The translations under genes were made by a program, and so were the position numbers. 40,009 nucleotides of DNA, from the sequence record SRR20825006_2978; one strand, given 5' to 3'. Below are positions 6,749 to 20,436 of this stretch, in pieces. Under the pieces are notes generated by a model. That model saw nothing but the letters and a program-made list of their open reading frames with translations, was not told the DNA's origin and searched no databases. Each line of letters starts with the position of its first letter. The stretch's first letter is position 1.

Positions 6749-6802
6749 AGAAGAATGAAGAAGGCGTGGTCAGTAACCTGACCACGCCTTCTTCATTCTT
6801 CT
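6749..6802. repeat. Perfect 25-bp inverted repeat with 4-nt loop
   Basis: AGAAGAATGAAGAAGGCGTGGTCAG-TAAC-CTGACCACGCCTTCTTCATTCTTCT, 50 bp past the kinase 3 stop. Confidence 0.9.
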
Positions 6803-6852: not shown

Positions 6853-9120
6853 TCACCACTTGATATAAGTGTCGTCCTTGCCACCCTTCTTGTCCGAGTC
6901 CTTGCTAGGACTCTTCTTGTCGGTTGTCTTTGGGCGCGTGGACTTTGGCATGCTCTTGGTGCCAGGGCGTGTGGGCGCTGGCATCGTGCGTGGCTTGACC
7001 TTCGGTGTATCCTCATCCGACTTCGTATCGGGGCGCGTGGGCTTTGGAGGTTCTGGCATCTTCACCTCTGAAGCGCGCTTCTTCTGCATTCCTGCGGCGA
7101 GCATCGACTCTTCGACGATGTCGGCGAGCATGTACGAGTTCTTGCGGTTGAACGCCGCGAACCCGGACTCGTTTTGAGGATCGTTGCTGTTGAGGAACCA
7201 GTTGGGCGCGGCGCGGAGCTCGCCGACGATCTGGCTCGAGAAGAAGATGCAGAGCAACAGGATGCTCATCCCGTTGATCGCGACGCCGACGGTCGATGCC
7301 TTGCGGAGCTTGTGGAGCCCGCTGCTCACGACGGCGAAGCGCTCTCTGGCGCCACCTTCAGCGACCAGCGGCACGAGCGGGATCAGGATCGCCGCGATCG
7401 CTGTGCCCATGAGTCGGATCGGTCCATCGACGACCAGCTCTGCGGTCGCGCCGAGCGTCAGGAACAACACGTAGATGATCACGATGAGCAGCAGCGTCAT
7501 CCCGATGGCGGTGATCAGCGTGATCGAGAACTCGAGCGAGGACTCCTCGTCGACCGAGCGCGCTGACGCGATGGTCTTCTGACGAGGTTGCTCTTGCGGC
7601 GTCGGTTGATACGGCTGCTCTGGGACTGTTTGCCGATACGGGGGGATCGCGGTCTGATCGAGCTCCGGCTCGGGCGCGAACGCGCTGTCACCAGAGCGGT
7701 CGCTCGGCGCTGGCGGCAAGTCTGCAGAGTTGAGCAGCGCAGAGCCCGAGGAAGAGGCGTGCGCGCCTTGCATGTGTTGGGGCGCGGCGTTGCCTTGAAG
7801 TCCTGGCATCGGTTGTTGCGGAGCGTTGCCTTGCAACCCTGGCATCTGACCATGGCCAGGCGGTGTGTTGCCCTGCAAGCCTGGCATTGGACCGCTGGCA
7901 TAGCCGCCTTGTTGTTGACCGTAGCCTTGCTGGCCGTAACCCTGTTGCTGTTGTGGGTAGCTTTGCGCGGGTTGCATCTGCTGCGCCGGAGGCGCTTGAT
8001 TGTAAGCTCCTGAAGGATGAACGTAATGACCAGAGGGCGTTTGATTGCCCTGGATCATCGGGTCCATCTGTTGCGCGGCGGGGAACCCACCTGATTGCCT
8101 GTTCCACTGTTGTTGCTGCGGGTTTTGTTGCGCGTAGGGGCCTGTGCCAAAGTTGTTCGAGGCGTAGTTGTTATTGAGCAAAAAGTCCCCGGAGGCGGAG
8201 GCATCGCTCATGCCCGCGAACCCCATGGACTCGCGCCTGATCTCGAAGAGCGCCTGCTCGAGCTCCTGCGCCATCACATCGACGGTGCGGTAGCGGTGCT
8301 GCATCGACTTCGCGACGGCGCGCTGCACGACGCGTTGCAGGGCAGGGTGGAGGCGGTTGAGGTTGCCAAGACGCAGCGGCTCCGGGCTGATCTGCTGGGT
8401 GATCAGCGCCATGGCTGTGTTGCCCGTGACCGCAGGCTCGCCAGTCAGCATCTCGTAGAACATCAACCCGAGGCTGTAGACATCACTCGCGCCGGTGAGC
8501 TCCTCGCCGCGCACTTGCTCCGGGCTCATGTAGCGGGGTGTCCCGATGAGCTGGCGCTCGCCAGGCGCGACGCCCACGCTGGTCAGATCTTCGCTCGCTT
8601 TATCGCGCCCACCGCGCAACCTGGCGATGCCGAAGTCGAGGACCTTGACGAAGTCTTCCTCGCCACCAAGCTCGGTGAGCATGATGTTGGCGGGCTTCAA
8701 GTCGCGGTGGATGATGCCGTGACGGTGTGCTTCCGAGAGGGACTTGGCGACCTGGATACAGACCTTGGAGGCGCGCTCGTCACGGAACGCGCCGCGGCGG
8801 TTGATCACATCCTTGAGCGTCTCTCCATCGACGTACTCGAGCACCATGTACACGAGGCCATCTCCCGTCTCTCCGAAATCGTGGATCGTGACGGTGTTGG
8901 GGTGCCTGAGTTTGGAGATGATCTTGACTTCGCGCAGGAATCGCTCGCGCGCTGTCATGCTCGCTTCGACCTGGAGGTCGGGCTTGAGCACCTTGAGGGC
9001 GACGTTGCGATCCATCCCGATCTGATACGCGAGGTAGACCATGCCAAAGCCGCCTCGGCCCAGCTCGCCCTGGATTCGGTACTTCCCCTCGAAAATATAG
9101 CCGCGCTGTAGGTGTTCCAT
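6853..9120 (-). CDS. Hanks-type Ser/Thr protein kinase with Gln/Gly/Pro-rich linker and multi-TM C-terminal domain (kinase 3)
   Basis: GRGGFG, VALK, HRDLKPAN, DFG, GTPRYMSPE, SDVYS; low-complexity linker; three hydrophobic helices; Pro/Lys-rich tail. Confidence 0.95.
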   Translation of the reverse strand: MEHLQRGYIFEGKYRIQGELGRGGFGMVYLAYQIGMDRNVALKVLKPDLQVEASMTARERFLREVKIISKLRHPNTVTIHDFGETGDGLVYMVLEYVDGETLKDVINRRGAFRDERASKVCIQVAKSLSEAHRHGIIHRDLKPANIMLTELGGEEDFVKVLDFGIARLRGGRDKASEDLTSVGVAPGERQLIGTPRYMSPEQVRGEELTGASDVYSLGLMFYEMLTGEPAVTGNTAMALITQQISPEPLRLGNLNRLHPALQRVVQRAVAKSMQHRYRTVDVMAQELEQALFEIRRESMGFAGMSDASASGDFLLNNNYASNNFGTGPYAQQNPQQQQWNRQSGGFPAAQQMDPMIQGNQTPSGHYVHPSGAYNQAPPAQQMQPAQSYPQQQQGYGQQGYGQQQGGYASGPMPGLQGNTPPGHGQMPGLQGNAPQQPMPGLQGNAAPQHMQGAHASSSGSALLNSADLPPAPSDRSGDSAFAPEPELDQTAIPPYRQTVPEQPYQPTPQEQPRQKTIASARSVDEESSLEFSITLITAIGMTLLLIVIIYVLFLTLGATAELVVDGPIRLMGTAIAAILIPLVPLVAEGGARERFAVVSSGLHKLRKASTVGVAINGMSILLLCIFFSSQIVGELRAAPNWFLNSNDPQNESGFAAFNRKNSYMLADIVEESMLAAGMQKKRASEVKMPEPPKPTRPDTKSDEDTPKVKPRTMPAPTRPGTKSMPKSTRPKTTDKKSPSKDSDKKGGKDDTYIKW

Positions 9121-9210
9121 CCGTCCGTGTCGGCTCCGGGCAGTGTCAACGGCAACTTATATTGCCTTTAGTAGAAGCGTAACAGTGTCCAACCGTTTGC
9201 GCAATCGCGC

Positions 9211-9246
9211 GGCGTGACGTGGTGCCAGAGGGCACCACGTCACGCC
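9211..9246. repeat. Perfect 16-bp inverted repeat just downstream of pspA (possible terminator or stabiliser)
   Basis: GGCGTGACGTGGTGCC-AGAG-GGCACCACGTCACGCC; no U-tract on the minus strand. Confidence 0.85.
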
Positions 9247-9264
9247 TTGCTCCCTGTCTCCTGA

Positions 9265-10035
9265 TCAGTGCGTCGCTTGCCGACGAACTGGAATGGACAC
9301 CTGCGCTGATTCTTCAGCACTTTCGTCCTCTTCTTCGAACACGAAGGATGAGGTCTCCGCGGCGGCCTGGGTGATCCCGACCTTTGCCTTGAGCGCCGCG
9401 AGCGCGTCGTCTGCCTGTCGCTCTGCTTCGAGCTCGGCGAAGTCGAGCTCGAGTGATTTCTCTTCTCCCGCGAGCACCTGCATCGCCTCGACGTGAGCTT
9501 CCTGCTCCTCGATCCTCGCCTCGACGCGCGCCAGCGCCGAGAAGGCGGTGTCGTTCGAGAGGTTCTCCTGGATCGCTTGCATCCGCTCCATCGCCTGGAC
9601 TTGTTTGGCGCGCATGATCAGCTGGGTGCGCTTTCGACGCGCCTCCGCGATCTTGGAGTCGAGCTTTCGCAGGCCATCCTTGAGCTGCTCGCTCATGGCG
9701 TTGGCGAGCTCGAGCTGGGTGCGGTAATCACTGGCGAGCACGTCTTGCTCCCCCTTGCGGCGCAATGCCTCTTTCGCCAGGTCATCGCGACCTGCTCGGA
9801 CGGCCATCATCGCCTTCTTCTCCCACTGCGCGGCGAGCGCCTCTGTCTGGCGTGTCTGGCGCTCGAGGCGTTTCTCTGAGGCGATCGCTTCGGCCACCGA
9901 GACCTTCGTCTCTCGGTAGTGTGACTGCATGTCGAGGATGAGCTGGTCGAGGATCTTCTCGGGGTCCTCCGCTCGCGCGAGCAGGTTGTTGATGTTGGCT
10001 TTGGCGAGCGTGGTCAGTCGGTCGACGATATTCAT
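9265..10035 (-). CDS. pspA: PspA/IM30 (Vipp1/ESCRT-III superfamily) protein
   Basis: MNIVDRLTTLAKANINNLLARAEDPEKILDQLILDM, WEKKAMMAVRAGRDDLAKEAL, coiled coil; GAGGAGGAG RBS upstream of ATG 10035. Confidence 0.93.
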   Translation of the reverse strand: MNIVDRLTTLAKANINNLLARAEDPEKILDQLILDMQSHYRETKVSVAEAIASEKRLERQTRQTEALAAQWEKKAMMAVRAGRDDLAKEALRRKGEQDVLASDYRTQLELANAMSEQLKDGLRKLDSKIAEARRKRTQLIMRAKQVQAMERMQAIQENLSNDTAFSALARVEARIEEQEAHVEAMQVLAGEEKSLELDFAELEAERQADDALAALKAKVGITQAAAETSSFVFEEEDESAEESAQVSIPVRRQATH

Positions 10036-10051
10036 CTGTGTTGACTCCTCC

Positions 10052-10293
10052 TCGCTCCTGTCGCGAGGTCCGGCCATTCTCGAGCTTCGCGCCGCGATGA
10101 ATACACAGCTCGTGCTGCATCTTCACTGCGGCGTGATCGACAATGAGCGGGCCACGCGACAGGAGCGAATCGATAATCGGGAGAGGTCGTGTCTTTTGCA
10201 GGCGATATGTCGGCTCTGGGGATGACGCCATTGTGATCTTTAGCGAGCCGAGCCTTTTGACGTTTGTTAAAAACGCGGCTCGCTCCAGATCAC
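10052..10293. ncRNA. Candidate structured RNA / 5' leader (two long irregular hairpins) upstream of pspA
   Basis: Hairpin 10052-10168 closed by a perfect 14-bp stem and hairpin 10233-10293; paired by eye, family not recognised. Confidence 0.4.
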
Positions 10294-10565
10294 CGTAACA
10301 CCATCCACGCTCACGAGCGCTGACGTGCACCTGTCTTCGAACAGTTTCCTCTTGCCCATGATAGTTGATTGGAATCTGTGATCCCTGGTGGCCTCGATCA
10401 AATTCGGGCAGGCTCACAAATTCTCGCTTACTTGATTAACATGGCTTCGCGCCGACCTATTTCACAGATCGTGCGCTTCTTTCACTGATCGTATCGCGAT
10501 GCCATCCTTGGCTTGGAGTCGTGTTATGAGTATGACCGTGGCACGGATGGCCCTGGAGAGATGTG

Positions 10566-11993
10566 ATGGATGAAGAGATCCAAGAACAAGAAGAGCGCGA
10601 ACCTGTCGTGATTTCGCCACGAGGCGAAATCAAGGGCACCGTCGATCTCTGGTACGAGGATGGGACATTGCTCGTCGAGGGGCTCGAGAGCTGGGATGAG
10701 GACCTCCTTCATTACGATGACCGCGTCTCGCTCTACCGCGCGCCCGCGCACCTGTATCGCAAGATCCTCGCCGCGCTCGTGCATGCTGGCTGGGCCGTCC
10801 GAGATATGGCGCGTGATTATGATGAGGTCGCGCTCTCGCTCGTGGACCCTCCAGACCCTTACGAACACCAGTCAGGCGCCATCGAGGCATGGAAGGCAGG
10901 TGGCAAGCGCGGCGTCGTCATCTTGCCGACGGGAGCAGGGAAGACCTTTGTCGCGCAGCTCGCCATTCAGGACGTCGCGCGCTCGGCGCTGATCCTCGTG
11001 CCGACGATCGATCTCCTCAATCAGTGGTCCGGGGTGTTGGAGAAAGCCTTCGGTTGCACCATCGGCCTGCTCGGCGGTGGTTACCACGAGATCGAGGATA
11101 TCACCGTCTCGACCTACGACTCGGGCGCCATTCATATGGATCGTCTCGGCGCGCGCTTCGGGCTGCTCGTCTTCGATGAGGTGCACCACTTGCCCGGCGA
11201 GCTCTATCAACAGATCGCGCAATCCTCGCTCGCGCCTTACAGGCTGGGGCTCACCGCGACCTACGAGCGCGCCGATGGCAAACACTCGATCCTCGATGAC
11301 CTCGTCGGCCCCGTCTTGTTTCGCCGCTCCATCAAGGAGCTCTCCGGAGATATCCTCGCCGACTACGAGGTTCGCACGCTCGCCATCGAAATGAGCGAAG
11401 ATGATGCCGAAACGTACACCAAGGCGCGCGAGGAATACCGCGAGTTCGTTCGCATCCGCGGGATCCGCATGAGCTCGGTGAATGGCTGGAAGCGCTTCCT
11501 CGCCGAGACCTCCAAGTCGCGCGAAGGGCGCGCGGCTTTCAAGGCGTACAGGCTCCAAAAACAACTCGCGCTCGTGCACGAGAAGAAGCTCGAGAAGCTC
11601 TACGAGCTGCTCGAGGAGCACCACGATGACCGCGTCTTGATCTTCACCAACGATAACGACTCCGTGTATCAGATCAGCCGCGAGGTCTTGTGTCCGACCA
11701 TCACGCACCAGACCCCGGTCAAGGAGCGCAAGGAGATCCTCGCCAGGTTCAACGAGGGAGCCTACAAGACGATCGCCACGAGCAAGGTCTTGAACGAGGG
11801 CGTCGATGTCCCCGAGGCGCGCGTCGCGGTCGTGTTGAGCGGCTCGGGATCTGTGCGCGAGCATGTGCAACGCCTCGGTCGCATCCTTCGCAGAGCGCCT
11901 GACAAGAAGGCGCTCCTCTACGAGTTGGTCACCGACAACTCCGTGGAGACCTACGTCAGCCAACGCAGGAGAGAGCACGATGCTTACCAGTGA
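10566..11993 (+). CDS. Superfamily 2 DNA helicase, XPB/Rad25 (Ssl2) type
   Basis: LPTGAGKT Walker A, FDEVHHL, GLTATYERADG, LNEGVDVP, QRLGRILR; compact ~475 aa; GGAG RBS before ATG 10566. Confidence 0.92.
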   Translation: MDEEIQEQEEREPVVISPRGEIKGTVDLWYEDGTLLVEGLESWDEDLLHYDDRVSLYRAPAHLYRKILAALVHAGWAVRDMARDYDEVALSLVDPPDPYEHQSGAIEAWKAGGKRGVVILPTGAGKTFVAQLAIQDVARSALILVPTIDLLNQWSGVLEKAFGCTIGLLGGGYHEIEDITVSTYDSGAIHMDRLGARFGLLVFDEVHHLPGELYQQIAQSSLAPYRLGLTATYERADGKHSILDDLVGPVLFRRSIKELSGDILADYEVRTLAIEMSEDDAETYTKAREEYREFVRIRGIRMSSVNGWKRFLAETSKSREGRAAFKAYRLQKQLALVHEKKLEKLYELLEEHHDDRVLIFTNDNDSVYQISREVLCPTITHQTPVKERKEILARFNEGAYKTIATSKVLNEGVDVPEARVAVVLSGSGSVREHVQRLGRILRRAPDKKALLYELVTDNSVETYVSQRRREHDAYQ

Positions 11994-13179
11994 TTTGTTG
12001 CGCGTGATCGCGCGCAAGCAGTCGGTCAAGCCGCGCTACCTCGACACCGAGAGCGAGCGCGCTCAGGAGAAGGCCGAGCAGCTCACCACGATCTTCGAGG
12101 CTCACGTGCAAAAGTCGCGCGGAGAGATCGATGATGAGGTCGAAGCGGCCATCGGACATGGCACTGATTTTCTGATCTGGCGAGGGCTCGCCAAGCTCCT
12201 CTATGACAGGAGCACGTTCGAGACCGTCGCCGAGGCCGAGCCCGTCGATATCCGCCGCGCCGTCTTCGAGGCATCCACCGAGCTTGGCCCAGTCACCACA
12301 AAGGAAAAGCGCGCCGAGGTCCTTGCCTACGCCGCAGAGCGCCTCGCCATCACCGCGCAGGGGTGTGAAGATGGCCTCTACGCTGATCTCGACGCCAATC
12401 AGATCCTGACCGAGTACAAGAAGCTCAAACCGCTCGCGCTCTTGCATCGCTACAACCTGGCGCTCGCGCAGGCGGTGCTCTACAAGGCGACGCGGTTGAT
12501 GGTCGAGCTCGACGACAGCGATCCGAATCGCTTGCGATACATCTTCCAATCACTCAAGTTCTTTGGTTTGATGCACCGCGCTTACAAGAGAGAGGAGGGG
12601 TGGTTGCTCGAGGTCGATGGTCCCGCGTCGCTCTTCTCGCAGAGTCGCAAGTACGGGCTCCAGATGGCCAAGTTCCTCCCCGCGCTCGCGCTGTGCGAAT
12701 CCTGGAGGATGCGCGCCACGCTCGCCTGGAGCAAGGGCTCCGAGCATATCATGGAGGTTAGCGACGAGGACGGGCTCGTCTCACACTACACCGCGCGCGG
12801 TCAGTGGGTCTCCGATGAAGAGAAGATGTTCGAGAGCCGCTTCGCGCAGATCGAGACCGACTGGGAGCTCGAGCGACGAGGGACTTTGCATGAACTCGAT
12901 GCTGGCGAAGTCTTGATTTCGGACTATGTTCTCAAGCATCCTGACGGAAGAGTCGGTTTTGTTGAAATCGTCGGTTTCTGGAGAAAAGCCTACCTCGAAC
13001 GTCGCATCGATCTTATGGAGAAGCTCGAAGGGGTGCCCCTCGTGCTCGTGGTCGGTGAGAAGTTGAACTCGGACAGGAACAAACTGGACGAGGTCCCCCC
13101 CGCCATCGTTTTCTTCAAGACGGTGATCCTTGTCGACAAGGTGATCTCGGCGGTCGAAGAGGTTTGCTCTTCCTGTTAG
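11980..13179 (+). CDS. DUF790 family protein (Bax1-like endonuclease partner of XPB)
   Basis: MLTSDLLR start overlapping the helicase end by 14 bp; GLYADL, RYNLALAQAVLY, DGPASLF...KYG, and ISDY...FVEIVGFW nuclease-type motif. Confidence 0.88.
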   Translation: MLTSDLLRVIARKQSVKPRYLDTESERAQEKAEQLTTIFEAHVQKSRGEIDDEVEAAIGHGTDFLIWRGLAKLLYDRSTFETVAEAEPVDIRRAVFEASTELGPVTTKEKRAEVLAYAAERLAITAQGCEDGLYADLDANQILTEYKKLKPLALLHRYNLALAQAVLYKATRLMVELDDSDPNRLRYIFQSLKFFGLMHRAYKREEGWLLEVDGPASLFSQSRKYGLQMAKFLPALALCESWRMRATLAWSKGSEHIMEVSDEDGLVSHYTARGQWVSDEEKMFESRFAQIETDWELERRGTLHELDAGEVLISDYVLKHPDGRVGFVEIVGFWRKAYLERRIDLMEKLEGVPLVLVVGEKLNSDRNKLDEVPPAIVFFKTVILVDKVISAVEEVCSSC

Positions 13180-13335
13180 TGAATGAACGGTGTGGTGGCA
13201 TGATTGGCCACGATGCCACAGGCAATTTGTTGTGAATTGTGCAGATCGCATGGTAGAACAGACCGCGGTATTCGCGGTGTGTTGCCATGCACATCTGAAC
13301 GATAGTGATGACCATGGCTGATGTTGGAGATTCGA

Positions 13336-14481
13336 GTGAACGTTCGTATTGATCACATGCTGGTGCGACCCTCTCGCCGGAAATTCGGCGCTCGGATAGT
13401 CGCTTGCTTGCTCGCCGCATCCTGCGTGCTGGCGCCCGTGACCTCGTTCGGTCAAGCGGATGGCGACGCCGAGCAGATGCAAAAGTACGTCAAGGAGGCG
13501 ACGCAACACTTCCGCGACAAGCAGTACGCAAAGGCGGGGGAAGCCTTCATGTTGGCTTACCAGGCCAAGGCCGAGCCAGTGTTGCTCAAGAATGCGATGG
13601 TGGCATTTTACTCGGCTGATGATTGCTCGAGCGCGGTCAAGACTGGCTTTAGCTTCCTCGAAACCCAGAAAGGGATCGACACCTCCGACATGACCGCGGA
13701 CCAGAAGGTCCAGTACGACAAGGATATCCAGGACACCAAGACCGTCATCAGCAAGTGCCGTCTGGCCGAGGCCGAGCTCGCGCTCAAGCGAAAGGACGTC
13801 GCCACGGCAAAGGTCGCCATCGATGGCATCGGTGATTTTGTCTCTGGTCAGGATGACGTCGAACGTCTCTTCACCGTGCGCAAGCAAATCGAAGAGATGG
13901 AGAAAGCGCAAAACGGTGACGGCAACGGGAACAACAACGGCAACGGTAATGGCGACGGCAACGGCGACGAGAAGTCCGGGATCTCGAACCAGGCGCTCAT
14001 TGGTTGGGTTCTCGTCGGTGCTGGCGCCGCAGGTGGCGCCGTCACGCTCGTGACCTCGCTCAACACGGCCAATGATATCAACTCCTTCGAGGATGATTAC
14101 GGCGAGCGTATCCAAGGCGGGCCGACTGGCGATCCTATCGAAGGTAACGATGATAACCTCGAGTACCGCATCGACGATTGCAACAACCTCAAGACCGAAA
14201 AAGGTGGCATGGTCGATGCCAGCGCTGGCGATAAGAACGAGTGCAGATCGGTCCTGGAGAGCTCCGACAAGATCAACCGTCGCATCGCTATCGGCTCCAC
14301 GCTTTCAGGCGTCGCGGTCGTGGCCAGTGTGACTCTCTTGGTTCTCGACGAGCGCAATCAACGCAAAGCCGAGGAGGCCAAAAAGAACGGCGAGGAGACC
14401 TCCAGGTTGCGCGATAACCTGATCATCGCGCCCACCTTCGGTCGTGATAGCGCTGGCGCTGCGGTCCTCTTCAGGTTCTGA
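13336..14481 (+). CDS. Exported TPR-like hypothetical protein with GN-rich linker, two hydrophobic helices and C-terminal beta-type motif
   Basis: Signal-peptide-like N-terminus, ATQHFRDKQYAKAGEAFMLAY TPR-like helix, NGDGNGNNNGNG linker, ends ...AGAAVLFRF. Start uncertain (13321, GTG 13336 with GGAG RBS, or 13357). Confidence 0.75.
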   Translation: MNVRIDHMLVRPSRRKFGARIVACLLAASCVLAPVTSFGQADGDAEQMQKYVKEATQHFRDKQYAKAGEAFMLAYQAKAEPVLLKNAMVAFYSADDCSSAVKTGFSFLETQKGIDTSDMTADQKVQYDKDIQDTKTVISKCRLAEAELALKRKDVATAKVAIDGIGDFVSGQDDVERLFTVRKQIEEMEKAQNGDGNGNNNGNGNGDGNGDEKSGISNQALIGWVLVGAGAAGGAVTLVTSLNTANDINSFEDDYGERIQGGPTGDPIEGNDDNLEYRIDDCNNLKTEKGGMVDASAGDKNECRSVLESSDKINRRIAIGSTLSGVAVVASVTLLVLDERNQRKAEEAKKNGEETSRLRDNLIIAPTFGRDSAGAAVLFRF

Positions 14482-14512: not shown

Positions 14513-14583
14513 AAGGCGCAAGAAAGCGAGCGAGCGAGCTTCCTGAAATTCAGGAAGCTCGCCCGCTCGCTTTCTTGCGCCTT
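14513..14583. repeat. 35-bp-arm near-perfect palindrome between convergent genes (probable bidirectional terminator)
   Basis: AAGGCGCAAGAAAGCGAGCGAGCGAGCTTCCTGAA-A-TTCAGGAAGCTCGCCCGCTCGCTTTCTTGCGCCTT; one mismatch. Confidence 0.88.
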
Positions 14584-14598
14584 CGATGCTCGATGCGT

Positions 14599-15885
14599 TC
14601 AGCCGTAAATCTCTGCGAGCGTCGCTGCTGCTGCCGCGAGGGTCTCGTCGATGACCTCGTCAGTGTGAGCGGTGCTCAGGAAGCCCGCCTCGTACTGGCT
14701 GCACGCCAGATACACGCCGCGCTCGAGCATCCCGTGGAAGAAGGCGTTGAACTTCTCGAAGTCACATCCCTTGACCTGCTCGTGCTCGCGGATGCTCTCT
14801 TCGTGGAAGAAGACGCCGAACATCGCGCCGACGCGGTGTTGTGTCATCGGGTAGTCGTGGTCATCGATGAGCTTTTGCATCCCATCTTGCATGCGCTGAC
14901 CCGACGCCTCGAGCTGCTCGTAGACCGCCGGTGTCAGGCGCTCGAGCGTGGCGATGCCCGCGGCCACTGCCACCGGGTTGCCGCTCAATGTGCCCGCCTG
15001 ATAAATCGGTCCATCTGGTGCGACCTGACGCATGTACTCGGACGTTCCGCCGTAGGCCGCCAGCGGGAATCCGCCGCCGAGGACCTTGCCAAAGCAATAC
15101 AGGTCTGGCTTGACGCCATAAACCTCCGCGGCGCCACCGCGCGCGACGCGAAAACCTGTCATCACCTCGTCCAAAATCAACGCCGCGCCGTGCTCGTCAC
15201 AGATGGCGCGAAGCTCGCCGAGGAAGTCATCCTGGGGAGGAATACAGCCAGTGTTTCCACAAATAGGCTCGACGATCACGGCGGCGATTTCTTGCGGGTT
15301 GTTCTCGAAGAGCTCTCGCACACTCGCTGGGTTATTAAACTTCGCGAGCAGCGTATCCCTGGCGCAACCCCTGGTCACGCCGGGGGAGTTTGGCTCTCCC
15401 AGCGTGAGCGCGCCCGAACCTGCGCCAACGAGGAAGGAGTCCGCGTGGCCATGGTAGCAGCCATCGAATTTGATGATCTTGTCACGACCTGTGACGCCGC
15501 GCGCGACGCGAATGGCGCTCATGCAGGCTTCCGTGCCGGAGTTCACCAGGCGCGTGACCTCGAGCCCTGGGACGCGCTCGATCATCATCTCTGCGAGCGT
15601 GATCTCCTGTTCTGTCGGCGCGCCAAACGAAGAGCCTCGCGCCACGGCGGCCTGTGCCGCGGCGACCACATCTGGCTGCGCGTGTCCGAGGATCGCGGGA
15701 CCCCAGGTCAGCACGTAGTCGATGTAGCGGTTGCCATCTGCGTCAAAGAGGTAGGCTCCCTCGGCGCGTTCGATAAATGGCGGGGTGCCTCCCACGCTCT
15801 TGAAGGCGCGAACAGGTGAGTTCACGCCGCCAGGGATGCTCTTCGCTGCGCGCTCGAGGAGGGTCTTGCTCTTCTCCAAGGTCAT
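14599..15885 (-). CDS. hemL: Glutamate-1-semialdehyde 2,1-aminomutase
   Basis: IPGGVNSPVRAF, VNSGTEA, FDGCYHGH, DEVMTGFR, FGKVLGGG, YQAGTLSGNP. Confidence 0.98.
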   Translation of the reverse strand: MTLEKSKTLLERAAKSIPGGVNSPVRAFKSVGGTPPFIERAEGAYLFDADGNRYIDYVLTWGPAILGHAQPDVVAAAQAAVARGSSFGAPTEQEITLAEMMIERVPGLEVTRLVNSGTEACMSAIRVARGVTGRDKIIKFDGCYHGHADSFLVGAGSGALTLGEPNSPGVTRGCARDTLLAKFNNPASVRELFENNPQEIAAVIVEPICGNTGCIPPQDDFLGELRAICDEHGAALILDEVMTGFRVARGGAAEVYGVKPDLYCFGKVLGGGFPLAAYGGTSEYMRQVAPDGPIYQAGTLSGNPVAVAAGIATLERLTPAVYEQLEASGQRMQDGMQKLIDDHDYPMTQHRVGAMFGVFFHEESIREHEQVKGCDFEKFNAFFHGMLERGVYLACSQYEAGFLSTAHTDEVIDETLAAAAATLAEIYG

Positions 15886-19683: not shown

Positions 19684-20436
19684 TCATGTCTGCTGGCACG
19701 CCAGCTCTTCTAGCAGCGCCGTGACATCCGGTACGGCGGGGATAAGATCGATGCTTAACCCGAGTGATTCACACGCGGCGGCGGTGGTCTCTCCGATCGC
19801 TGCGCGCGGTATATGGAGCCATCGTCTCTCCTCGGTCGCCTCGAGGCGACCGACGAGCGCGCGCCATGCGCGCGCTCCCTTCGGGCTCATCAGCACGATC
19901 CAATCCGCCAGCGGTTCGCGCTCGCTCGCCGGGGAGAGGAGGTCGAGGTCAGATGCTTCGGTGGTACGGTATGCGGCGATTTCCAGGACCTCGACCTCCT
20001 CTCCCCGACTCGCCAGCGCCGCGGCCAGAGGCCGCGGCTTGCCCTCGAGCCCGAGCGAGAGAATCACCGGTGGCAAGCGCTCCATCGCATTCATCCAGGC
20101 GGCGAGCCCCTCGAAGTGCTGATCCTCTTCTGGGGCAGCCAGCACGGTCGCTGCCGGGAACGCCGAGGCGGCGCGCGCTGCGGTTTTTTGTCCCACGCAA
20201 TAAATCGTGGCGTTCGAGAGGTCGAAATCACTGCGCTCGAGCGCAGTGATCGCATGACGTGAATAAATCGCGACGCCAAACACACCACGAGGTTGAGCGA
20301 GGCGGATTTGCTCCGGCAAATCCGCCTCGCTCAACCTCGCTATTTCGACCTCGAGCATCGGCGCGTGCCAGAGCTCGACGTTCGCTGGGACGACCGAAGG
20401 AGGGCGCGTCCCTGTATAGAAGATGCGCGTGCTCAT
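19684..20436 (-). CDS. hemD: Uroporphyrinogen-III synthase (divergent)
   Basis: YCVGQKTA, AAYRT, LMSPKGA, AAIGETTAAA motifs; directly after hemC. Confidence 0.82.
   Translation of the reverse strand: MSTRIFYTGTRPPSVVPANVELWHAPMLEVEIARLSEADLPEQIRLAQPRGVFGVAIYSRHAITALERSDFDLSNATIYCVGQKTAARAASAFPAATVLAAPEEDQHFEGLAAWMNAMERLPPVILSLGLEGKPRPLAAALASRGEEVEVLEIAAYRTTEASDLDLLSPASEREPLADWIVLMSPKGARAWRALVGRLEATEERRWLHIPRAAIGETTAAACESLGLSIDLIPAVPDVTALLEELACQQT

What the first reader, a model, noticed from the sequence alone, without database searches (positions are those of the whole stretch)
10052..10168. 117-nt rod-like hairpin abutting the pspA Shine-Dalgarno
Seen: TCGCTCCTGTCGCG (10052-10065) pairs perfectly with CGCGACAGGAGCGA (10155-10168); pairing continues inward (GGTCCG/CGGGCC, CATTCTCGA/TCGACAATG, TCGCGCCGCG/TGCGGCGTGA, TGAA/TTCA, CAGC/GCTG) to a 4-nt loop, with wobbles, small mismatches and one 3-nt bulge, a pattern typical of RNA structure rather than a DNA duplication. 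On the pspA mRNA the stem ends right at the GAGGAGGAG RBS. Inference: an unrecognised cis-regulatory RNA (thermometer, RNase III site or protein-binding leader) or small RNA.
Basis: partly seen in the sequence, partly recalled or inferred. Interest (0 to 1): 0.7.

Follow-up and report, generated by a model that had tools for sequence, protein, structure and literature searches.

The report
Structured leader hairpin before pspA
A very stable 117-base RNA hairpin sits just before the ribosome-binding site of a membrane-stress gene (pspA) in a marine myxobacterium, as part of a long folded mRNA leader that probably controls how the message is cut, kept and translated.

Summary
The hairpin is real. 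The pspA-sense fold is -83.1 kcal/mol, z -8.2, with 0 of 200 shuffles as good. It abuts the pspA Shine-Dalgarno on the minus strand. It is not a lone element. It is the last of three stem-loops in a leader of at least 370 nt, between pspA and a divergent XPB-like helicase gene.

In RNA-library contigs from 2 of 4 runs the hairpin is joined to the pspA coding sequence. Contig ends cluster at 10405-10421.

Only one other lineage, a Myxococcota MAG, carries this pspA paralogue. It keeps the basal 33 pairs: 23 invariant, 6 one-sided changes, 3 compensatory, 1 broken. It also keeps the internal mismatches. Its apical half is an unrelated sequence that still pairs.

The pspA-sense strand always folds better than the antisense strand, so selection acts on the RNA. 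There is no Rfam match, the element is single-copy, and no U-tract follows it.

One RNA run has an adapter-joined end at 10148, inside the 5' arm. A metagenome contig starts at the same base.

My best reading (0.4) is an endonuclease processing and stability site, probably for RNase III, that also clamps an anti-SD onto the SD. A thermometer is disfavoured. This is a new member of a known kind, of moderate interest.

The parts
10052..10168 (-). The reported rod hairpin (SL-C): about 48 pairs, 4-nt loop, 1x1 mismatches, one 3-nt bulge
   Evidence: 48 pairs, -77.6 kcal/mol for the hairpin alone, ending 16 nt before the ATG
10043..10178 (-). Rod plus closing helix P0. The upstream GAUUAUC (10178-10172) pairs with GGAGUC (10048-10043), the 3' part of the SD run and the two bases after it
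   Evidence: MFE and centroid folds. The same helix is predicted in L012 and L001.
10045..10053 (-). Shine-Dalgarno run GAGGAGGAG. The conserved core AGGAGUC lies 9 nt before the AUG
   Evidence: Sequence; alignment with L001
9265..10035 (-). pspA paralogue coding sequence (256 aa, PspA/IM30 family)
   Evidence: Pfam PF04012, E 1.5e-44. N-terminus aligned with the L001 orthologue from residue 1
10220..10306 (-). SL-B, the second long hairpin of the leader. Its base is conserved and its apex variable
   Evidence: I4. Folds: -50.1 sense against -41.7 antisense, z -5.3. Consensus structure
10372..10423 (-). SL-A, the 5'-proximal hairpin of the leader. Base GAAUUUGUG/CACAGAUUC is conserved; the apex is replaced in L001
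   Evidence: -21.7, z -3.6 in the window; -21.8, z -6.8 in L001
10036..10425 (-). The pspA 5' leader (at least 370 nt). The exact 5' end is not fixed; RNA-library contigs end at 10405, 10406 and 10421
   Evidence: table 8 (X14 record 1, X15 record 6, X17 record 12). Structure
10148..10149 (-). Discrete RNA end inside the 5' arm, between C10149 and G10148, in the 3-bp helix flanked by the conserved C.A and C.C mismatches. Candidate processing site
   Evidence: X17 record 11 ends at 10148 followed by adapter-like letters, and X17 record 12 ends at 10149; contig L013 begins at the base equivalent to 10148
10179..10186 (-). CCUCUCCC, predicted to pair with GGGCAAGAGG (10348-10357) and so enclose SL-B. 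Invariant in all three sequences
   Evidence: Consensus fold, (pairs at columns 76-85 with 247-254)
10360..10363 (-). (U/C)AUC, predicted to pair with GAUG (10036-10033), which contains the start codon
   Evidence: columns 70-73 with 397-400. The U-to-C variant keeps the pair
9211..9246 (.). Perfect 16-bp hairpin 19 nt after the pspA stop codon; probably the terminator
   Evidence: I17. Its position relative to the stop at 9265 comes

Best explanation
The hairpin acts as RNA on the pspA message. It is the 3'-most and largest of three stem-loops in a 5' leader of at least 370 nt, belonging to a lineage-restricted pspA paralogue.

Its conserved basal half has about 28 pairs plus fixed U.U, C.A, C.C and G.G mismatches. 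The variable but always paired apex extends it into a long double-stranded rod. The rod has two effects:

(i) It holds an upstream anti-SD (GAUUAUC) against the SD, so the primary transcript is a poor initiation substrate.

(ii) It is recognised by a double-strand-specific endonuclease, most likely RNase III. The enzyme nicks the 5' arm between C10149 and G10148.

The cut separates a leader fragment of about 257 nt from a pspA mRNA that begins with a fully paired 5'-terminal hairpin. That hairpin would protect the mRNA from 5'-end-dependent decay. Once the cut-off strand is lost, the SD-side strand is no longer clamped.

Shown: the structure, its RNA-strand bias, its conservation, its presence in RNA libraries joined to the coding sequence, and a discrete end at 10148.

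Inferred: the enzyme, and the effect on stability and translation.

I put about 0.8 on the narrower claim that this is a selected cis RNA structure of the pspA leader, and 0.4 on the processing mechanism.
For: Structure:
- Searches give z -8.2 and -7.2.
- The hairpin is the fourth most stable locus among 3190 windows.

RNA-strand bias (sense against antisense, kcal/mol):
- Window: -83.1 against -79.1.
- L012: -82.4 against -74.4.
- L001: -102.5 against -93.8.
- SL-B: -50.1 against -41.7 in the window, and -47.7 against -38.8 in L001.
- DNA parameters show no such asymmetry in the window: -45.8 against -45.4.

Conservation:
- Across window, L012 and L001, the 33 basal pairs split into 23 invariant, 6 changed on one side with the pair kept, 3 changed on both sides with the pair kept, and 1 broken.
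- 99% of cells are paired, against 44-53% when the partners are slid by 1-3 columns.
- The mismatched bases are identical in L001.
- The apical half in L001 is unrelated in sequence, yet forms a perfect 21-bp helix.

Transcription:
- X14 record 1 spans 9000-10406.
- X15 record 6 is a whole 1171-nt contig spanning 9251-10421.
- Both carry the hairpin joined to the coding sequence.

Processing:
- X17 record 11 ends at 10148, followed by adapter-like letters.
- X17 record 12 is exactly 10149-10405.
- Metagenome contig L013 starts at the base equivalent to 10148.
- An RNA starting at 10148 is predicted to pair from its first base.

RBS occlusion:
- The cost of opening -20..+13 is 20.2-22.0 kcal/mol, against 8.0-20.3 for 16 other ORF starts in the window.
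- It falls to 15.5 for the form starting at 10148.

Enzyme and precedent:
- An RNase III-domain gene is present in the relative G001 (PF14622, E 2.1e-38).
- RNase III-cut leader hairpins that control decay (pnp, rnc) or unmask an RBS (adhE, lambda cIII) are established (passages in PMC5371410, and PMC3997798).
Against: - Only two lineages exist for comparison. L012 and L013 are near-identical to the window, so the covariation rests on one divergent sequence. In the shuffle control, 23 of 500 shuffles reached the observed value.
- The laid runs are contigs. They cannot show strand, true ends or levels, and an RNA library can hold DNA (caveats).
- X14 and X15 contigs run straight through 10148.
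- No matching end is seen on the 3' arm, which classical two-strand RNase III cleavage would give.
- X17 and L013 may not be independent data.
- The SD-only opening cost is not lowered in the processed form: 10.6 against 9.7 kcal/mol.
- Three other ORF starts also cost 19 kcal/mol or more to open, so the occlusion is high but not an outlier.
- Two population variants break pairs: 10137 T>G in X15 (in the rod), and 10290 T>G in X15, X17 and L012 (in SL-B).
- The enzyme is inferred by analogy only.
Confidence: 0.4

Rival explanations
1. Passive stabiliser or insulator. The rod and the other leader hairpins only protect the pspA mRNA from exonucleases and scanning endonucleases, and keep the RBS context constant. 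There is no specific cleavage and no regulation.
For: All three hairpins keep their pairing while their apices drift. This fits selection for stability alone. X14 and X15 contigs pass through the rod uninterrupted. SL-A begins within a few bases of the furthest contig end, 10421 against a stem start at 10423.
Against: Pure stability does not explain why the internal mismatches and the sequence of the basal half are invariant between lineages whose intergenic DNA is only 73% identical. It also does not explain the discrete end at 10148.
Confidence: 0.2
2. Protein-binding operator. The conserved basal half, with its fixed mismatches next to the SD, is the binding site of a translational repressor or activator. 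This could be an autoregulatory or stress-responsive RNA-binding protein that competes with the ribosome.
For: The mismatches U.U, C.A, C.C and G.G and the flanking sequence are conserved while the apex is free to vary. The site lies directly beside the SD. The joints of the leader are invariant.
Against: No candidate RNA-binding protein is encoded next to it. The neighbours are an XPB-like helicase, a DUF790 protein and a Ser/Thr kinase. The element is single-copy, so no regulon is visible. Nothing tests binding.
Confidence: 0.15
3. One module of a larger sensing riboregulator. The whole leader of at least 370 nt (three hairpins plus invariant joints that pair with the SD and the AUG) switches conformation in response to a ligand, a protein or a trans RNA. 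The rod is its expression platform.
For: The consensus fold has 136 pairs, 18 of them with changes on both sides. It includes long-range helices joining invariant segments: GGGCAAGAGG with CCUCUCCC, and (U/C)AUC with GAUG of the start codon. The full intergenic fold has z -7.9. There is no Rfam match.
Against: There are only three sequences from two lineages. Many of the 18 double changes lie in poorly aligned apices. The rods are so stable that alternative folds are hard to envisage. No ligand clue exists.
Confidence: 0.12
4. DNA-level palindrome. This would be a cruciform-prone inverted repeat, a protein-binding site on DNA, or a by-product of template-switch mutation or an old insertion, with no RNA function.
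For: The window holds other long palindromes, two of them inside the hemD coding sequence, so this genome tolerates or generates them. The DNA folds are also significant, z -6.8 and -6.7. The L001 apex is a perfect palindrome.
Against: The one-sided changes create G.U pairs on the pspA-sense strand, which are A.C mismatches on the other strand. Sense folds beat antisense folds in 5 of 5 comparisons. The element is single-copy in the window and in G001, and it is found nowhere else among 101 relatives. It lies within RNA-library contigs.
Confidence: 0.06
5. RNA thermometer. Warming melts the SD-containing helix and allows translation.
For: The SD core is paired in a weak closing helix of 6 pairs, 2 of them G.U, stacked on the rod.
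Against: The rod is -78 to -92 kcal/mol. The SD opening cost falls only from 12.8 to 8.3 kcal/mol between 15 and 45 C. Paired probabilities of the SD bases change little up to 55 C. No ROSE, fourU or other thermometer family matched in Rfam at E up to 10.
Confidence: 0.04

Closest known systems
RNase III-processed leader hairpins of E. coli pnp and rnc
   Same: A long, imperfect hairpin in the 5' leader of an mRNA whose cleavage sets the fate of the message (passages in PMC5371410, and PMC3997798). The hairpin here is of comparable size, lies in a leader, and has a discrete end inside the stem.
   Different: There is no sequence or Rfam relation. Here only one end is seen, on the 5' arm, with no staggered pair of cuts. 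The gene is pspA, not a ribonuclease gene. The enzyme is not shown. The predicted outcome here is stabilisation, not decay.
RBS-unmasking by RNase III (E. coli adhE, phage lambda cIII)
   Same: The RBS is occluded by leader secondary structure until cleavage (PMC5371410 passages). Here an anti-SD is clamped to the SD by the rod, and the candidate cut lies between them.
   Different: The computed SD-only opening cost does not drop after the cut. No functional data exist. The structure is much longer and more stable.
5'-terminal stabiliser stem-loops (the ompA-type 5' hairpin and RNase III-generated protective hairpins such as those proposed for ahpF, pflB and yajQ)
   Same: A processed transcript that starts with a paired 5' end is protected. 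PMC5371410 proposes that cleavage leaves stabilising hairpins. The ompA case is recalled from memory and not checked here. The RNA starting at 10148 is predicted to pair from its first base.
   Different: Half-life has not been measured. The hairpin left here would be 77 nt long, far larger than the classical examples.
RNA thermometers (ROSE, fourU)
   Same: The SD lies in a weak helix containing G.U pairs.
   Different: The stability is far outside a physiological melting range, and there is no family match.
REP- or MITE-like dispersed palindromes
   Same: An imperfect inverted repeat of about 120 bp in an intergenic region.
   Different: It is single-copy in the window and in the relative's genome. 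No target-site duplication is visible at the flanks. It is conserved at one orthologous site.

Membership tests
Any Rfam family (release 15) | Match to a curated covariance model | tested here: not met
   cmscan of 9000-11500, both strands, E up to 10. There were 4 weak hits, none in 10036-10562 and all far below the gathering scores
RNase III-processed leader hairpin | Double-stranded stem of about two helical turns or more in the 5' leader | tested here: met
   48 pairs in the window and 45 in L001. The stem lies inside RNA-library contigs that reach 10406-10421
RNase III-processed leader hairpin | RNase III encoded by the organism | tested here: inconclusive
   No genome is held for the window. 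The only relative with the element, G001, has a PF14622 match, E 2.1e-38, over the cut-off
RNase III-processed leader hairpin | Staggered cuts on both arms leaving 2-nt 3' overhangs | tested here: not met
   Only one end is seen, at 10148/10149 on the 5' arm. No end appears near 10069-10072 on the 3' arm in the 4 runs laid. Contigs are a poor test, and single-strand nicking at internal loops is known for some substrates (recalled from memory)
RNase III-processed leader hairpin | Cleavage depends on rnc | not testable with these tools
   Needs a mutant or the purified enzyme
RNA thermometer | SD or AUG held in a helix that melts within the physiological temperature range | tested here: not met
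   The SD opening cost is 12.8, 11.5, 9.7 and 8.3 kcal/mol at 15, 25, 37 and 45 C. Pair probabilities are nearly flat up to 55 C. This is in silico only
Intrinsic terminator or attenuator | G+C-rich stem followed by a U run | tested here: not met
   0 terminator-like sites in 9900-10700. The bases after the stem are GGAGGAGUCAACACAG
Dispersed palindromic repeat (REP or MITE) | Many copies per genome | tested here: not met
   One significant locus in G001 with the 527-nt intergenic query. The L001 apex matches only itself. Model R1 finds only the pspA locus in G001 among 101 relatives, and the next hits, at 26 bits or less, delete most of stem P1. In the window R1 matches only the hairpin itself
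5'-terminal stabiliser hairpin | Stem begins within a few unpaired bases of the RNA 5' end | tested here: inconclusive
   The RNA starting at 10148 pairs from base 1 in the MFE fold. For the primary transcript, the SL-A stem starts at 10423 and the furthest contig end is 10421. True 5' ends are not mapped
Leader peptide or small ORF | ORF conserved in frame and length between relatives | tested here: not met
   The leader ORFs of the window (44, 51, 98 and 211 aa) and of L001 (38, 41, 95, 102 and 166 aa) differ in start, frame continuity and length

The most novel reading that the evidence does not exclude
The whole leader of at least 370 nt is a new class of structured riboregulator dedicated to a membrane-stress PspA paralogue. 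It has three hairpins with conserved bases and free apices, joined by invariant strands that pair with both the SD and the start codon. In this reading it senses a protein, a metabolite or a stress-linked factor. Cleavage inside the rod releases a stable leader RNA of about 257 nt (10405-10149) that could itself act in trans.
Probability: 0.12. Interest if true: 0.7.

Novelty: new member of a known kind. Interest (0 to 1): 0.4.

Why it matters
PspA/IM30 proteins are known as membrane-stress effectors that are controlled mainly at transcription. The searches of the held literature found no description of a structured pspA leader.

If the rod is a processing and stability determinant, then a marine Myxococcota lineage controls a second, lineage-specific PspA after transcription. 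That would be a compact natural example of a hairpin combining RBS clamping, endonucleolytic maturation and a protective 5' end.

The conserved-base, variable-apex design seen in all three leader hairpins is also a clean case for studying what a double-strand-specific nuclease or binding protein reads in a stem.

The finding is limited by its narrow distribution (two lineages) and by the lack of strand-specific end mapping.

Tried and rejected
1. The window's own genome is not held, so copy number in the source genome could not be checked. The relative G001 was used instead.

2. More orthologues were sought for covariation:
- The genome-contig scan gave 3 loci, only L001 orthologous.
- The metagenome scan gave 4 loci. 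L012 and L013 are near-identical to the window; L014 and L015 belong to a different paralogue.
- Protein searches found the orthologue in 1 of 61 relatives (the other 51 genomes with a match carry the roughly 50%-identical paralogue), 1 of 113 class genomes and 1 of 401 phylum genomes.
- No further sequences were found for this pspA type.

3. Upstream regions of the other PspA paralogue were checked for a comparable hairpin. Of 32 loci examined (L002, L003, L015, L017-L045), none has a comparable hairpin next to the RBS. L027 has a 46-pair hairpin 79 nt before the ATG, but its close relative L025 does not share it. The rod is therefore not a general pspA feature.

4. Covariance model R1 gave no credible extra members.

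5. Sigma-70-like promoter and terminator scans of 9900-10700 gave 0 and 0 sites. The promoter remains unidentified. By eye I saw no convincing sigma-54 site.

6. The thermometer reading was rejected in silico.

7. Coding readings of the leader were rejected.

8. Read laying showed stretches without cover: the helicase side in X15, 10036-10478 in X16, and 10406-10553 in most runs. These say nothing about absence of transcripts. Depths are per-contig values and were not used to rank genes.

9. Population variants in the RNA runs, as listed (8 more rows were not shown):
- 3 keep predicted pairs: 10059, 10229 and 10363.
- 2 break them: 10137 and 10290.
- 3 lie in unpaired positions: 10325, 10347 and 10390.
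This is too few to be a test.

10. Earlier notes of this scan: none for this genome.

11. Literature searches:
- 'pspA / phage shock protein / untranslated region / hairpin' gave 0 papers.
- 'pspA / leader / RNA thermometer' gave 0 papers.
- 'pspA / Myxococcus / UTR' gave 3 papers, irrelevant judging by title and abstract.

Full report
**Observation.** 10052-10065 is the perfect complement of 10155-10168, and pairing continues inward to a 4-nt loop, with small mismatches and one 3-nt bulge. It is the longest inverted repeat in the window (I1).

Folded as RNA, 10030-10180 gives -83.1 kcal/mol on the minus strand (z -8.18, 0 of 200 shuffles as good). The plus strand gives -79.1 (z -7.19). In a scan of 3190 windows of 150 nt over both strands (mean -53.9, sd 9.1), it is the fourth most stable distinct locus.

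**Context.** pspA (PF04012, E 1.5e-44) runs on the minus strand from 10035 to 9265. A perfect 16-bp hairpin follows its stop codon. The next gene upstream is divergent: an XPB-like helicase (10563-11993, plus strand) followed by a DUF790 protein. The hairpin therefore lies in a 527-bp divergent intergenic region.

On the pspA-sense strand the stem's last pair (U10168-A10052) overlaps the run GAGGAGGAG (10053-10045). The fold adds a 6-pair closing helix between GAUUAUC (10178-10172) and GGAGUC (10048-10043), so the SD core is itself paired.

**Is it transcribed?** The stretch is held by 19 public runs from 16 studies, mostly marine metagenomes, and 6 of these are RNA libraries. Four RNA runs were laid. 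They are contigs only, so strand, level and true ends cannot be read.

- X14 record 1 covers 9000-10406 and is followed by letters I recognise, from memory, as an Illumina adapter.
- X15 record 6 is a whole 1171-nt contig covering exactly 9251-10421.
- X17 covers the same span in pieces: 9792-10148 and 10149-10405.
- X16 does not cover the hairpin.

In 2 of 4 RNA libraries the hairpin is thus contiguous with the pspA coding sequence, and contig ends from three studies cluster at 10405-10421. This is a weak hint for a 5' end there and implies a leader of about 370-385 nt. RNA libraries can still contain DNA, so this is support and not proof.

**The leader as a whole.** A consensus fold of window, L012 and L001 gives three stem-loops:

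- SL-A at 10423-10372
- SL-B at 10306-10220 (already listed as I4)
- the rod

It also gives long-range helices between invariant joints. GGGCAAGAGG (10357-10348) pairs with CCUCUCCC (10186-10179). (U/C)AUC (10363-10360) pairs with GAUG, which contains the start codon.

The fold has 136 predicted pairs, 18 of them with changes on both sides, though many of those lie in poorly aligned apices. The whole intergenic region folds with z -7.9.

**Conservation.** This pspA is a lineage-restricted paralogue. A genome scan found one orthologue, L001 (a Myxococcota MAG by its record title; 84-85% protein identity, same divergent helicase). A metagenome scan found two near-identical contigs, L012 and L013.

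Protein searches found the orthologue in 1 of 61 relatives, 1 of 113 class genomes and 1 of 401 phylum genomes. The other 51 relatives with a match carry a paralogue about 50% identical, which G001 also has.

Against L001 the intergenic DNA is 73% identical overall. In the basal half of the rod plus the closing helix (33 pairs), the counts are:

- 23 pairs invariant
- 6 changed on one side with the pair kept
- 3 changed on both sides with the pair kept (U-A to C-G, C-G to G-C, A-U to G-C)
- 1 broken

The U.U, C.A, C.C and G.G mismatches are all conserved. 99% of cells are paired, against 44-53% when the partners are slid. In the shuffle control, 23 of 500 shuffles reached the observed value, which is unsurprising with effectively two sequences.

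The apical half in L001 is unrelated in sequence but forms a perfect 21-bp helix. SL-A and SL-B show the same pattern of conserved base and replaced apex.

**RNA or DNA?** The one-sided changes mostly create G.U pairs on the pspA-sense strand, which would be A.C mismatches on the other strand. Accordingly the sense strand folds better in all five comparisons:

| Element | Sense (kcal/mol) | Antisense (kcal/mol) |
|---|---|---|
| Rod, window | -83.1 | -79.1 |
| Rod, L012 | -82.4 | -74.4 |
| Rod, L001 | -102.5 | -93.8 |
| SL-B, window | -50.1 | -41.7 |
| SL-B, L001 | -47.7 | -38.8 |

With DNA parameters the two strands of the window are equal, -45.8 against -45.4.

The element is single-copy. 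With the 527-nt intergenic query, G001 gives only the pspA locus. The L001 apex matches only itself. A covariance model of the rod (R1) finds only the G001 pspA locus among 101 relatives; the next hits, at 26 bits or less, delete most of stem P1 and are not near pspA. In the window it matches only itself.

No Rfam family matches. No U run follows the stem, and the terminator scan found nothing. ORFs in the leader are not conserved.

**A discrete end inside the stem.**

- X17 record 11 ends at 10148, followed by adapter-like letters.
- X17 record 12 is exactly 10149-10405.
- The metagenome contig L013 begins at the base equivalent to 10148.

The perfect arm is only 14 bp long, so as far as I can judge, an assembly break caused by the repeat is unlikely. 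The site lies between C10149 and G10148, in the 3-bp helix flanked by the conserved C.A and C.C mismatches. An RNA starting there pairs from its first base.

Against this, X14 and X15 contigs run through the site. No partner end is seen on the 3' arm. X17 and L013 may not be independent.

**Mechanism.** The RBS (-20..+13) costs 20.2 kcal/mol to open in the full leader, or 22.0 in a 200-nt context. The 16 other ORF starts in the window cost 8.0-20.3, and three of them cost 19 or more. The RBS is therefore at the top of the range but is not an outlier.

The cost falls smoothly with temperature. The SD-only cost goes from 12.8 to 8.3 kcal/mol between 15 and 45 C, and pair probabilities stay nearly flat up to 55 C. 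With a rod of -78 to -92 kcal/mol, this disfavours a thermometer.

For the form starting at 10148, the RBS cost drops to 15.5, but the SD-only cost does not drop (10.6 against 9.7).

An RNase III-domain gene is present in G001. Known analogues are the RNase III-cut leaders of pnp and rnc, and the RBS-unmasking cleavages of adhE and lambda cIII. PMC5371410 also proposes that cleavage can leave protective hairpins (passages in PMC5371410, and PMC3997798).

I therefore favour, at 0.4, a double-strand-specific processing and stability site that also clamps an anti-SD to the SD. The rivals are:

- a passive stabiliser (0.2)
- a protein operator (0.15)
- a module of a larger sensing leader (0.12)
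- a DNA-level palindrome (0.06)
- a thermometer (0.04)

The narrower claim, that this is a selected cis RNA structure of the pspA leader, I hold at about 0.8.

**Novelty.** There is no Rfam family. The held literature has no paper combining pspA with leader, UTR, hairpin or thermometer terms (the three hits are irrelevant judging by title and abstract).

The kind of element, a structured leader hairpin at the RBS that is probably processed, is well known. This is a new, narrowly distributed member of that kind. Interest is moderate: the anatomy is clean and testable, but the comparison rests on two lineages and no function has been shown.

Noticed in passing
window 19918-20019 and 20288-20339: Two long inverted repeats lie inside the coding sequence of hemD. 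One has 33-nt arms that are 88% complementary. The other has 24-nt perfect arms with a 4-nt loop. hemD is ORF 19684..20436 on the minus strand (PF02602, E 1.9e-23), between hemC-like and hemE-like genes. They are among the most stable 150-nt windows of the 40 kb (about -90 to -94 kcal/mol). Long perfect hairpins inside a CDS are unusual. They might be translational-coupling or processing signals in the hem operon.
   Followed up: partly
window 10479-10570: The stretch between the helicase start and the pspA promoter side is 87 of 92 bases identical to L001, while the whole intergenic region is 73% identical. It holds a hairpin (GCCAUCC...GGAUGGC). An RNA-library contig (X16 record 9) begins exactly at 10479. 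This may be the conserved 5' leader of the XPB-like helicase mRNA. A short uORF (ATG at 10526) overlaps the helicase start.
   Followed up: partly
window 10563-13179: An XPB-like helicase (XPB_DRD, ResIII, Helicase_C and ERCC3_RAD25_C domains) is followed by a DUF790 protein (E 3.3e-110). The pair is divergent from pspA and syntenic in L001. As listed, the two ORFs overlap by 131 nt, so the DUF790 start is probably later.
   Followed up: no
window 10436-10464 (minus strand): UGAAAU (10464-10459), then 17 nt, then UGUUAA (10441-10436), conserved in L001 as GGAAAU...UGUUAA. This resembles, from memory only, an ECF-type promoter, and it would place a TSS near 10427-10430, just upstream of SL-A. 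The sigma-70 scan found nothing.
   Followed up: no
window 14513-14583: A palindrome with 35-nt arms that are 97% complementary lies between the convergent ORFs 13321..14481 (+) and 14599..15885 (-, a class-III aminotransferase). It is probably a bidirectional terminator. It is the second most stable locus in the window.
   Followed up: no
window 9344: RNA-run variants carry a 6-nt in-frame insertion (AGGAGG in X14 and X16, AGGATG in X17) behind 9344, along with a cluster of substitutions at 9286-9325. These fall in the acidic C-terminal tail of PspA, so that tail is the variable part of the protein.
   Followed up: no
L027 (G024:C11), about 79-195 nt upstream of its pspA: The common PspA paralogue of one relative has a 46-pair hairpin of -70.6 kcal/mol in the spacer after the upstream co-directional gene. 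The closely related L025 does not fold the same way. It is unrelated in sequence to the window's rod.
   Followed up: partly
window 6853-9120 (minus strand): A Ser/Thr protein kinase lies directly downstream of pspA. It has a long Q/P/G-rich low-complexity linker, apparent membrane segments and a lysine-rich tail. A perfect 25-bp hairpin follows it at 6749-6802.
   Followed up: no
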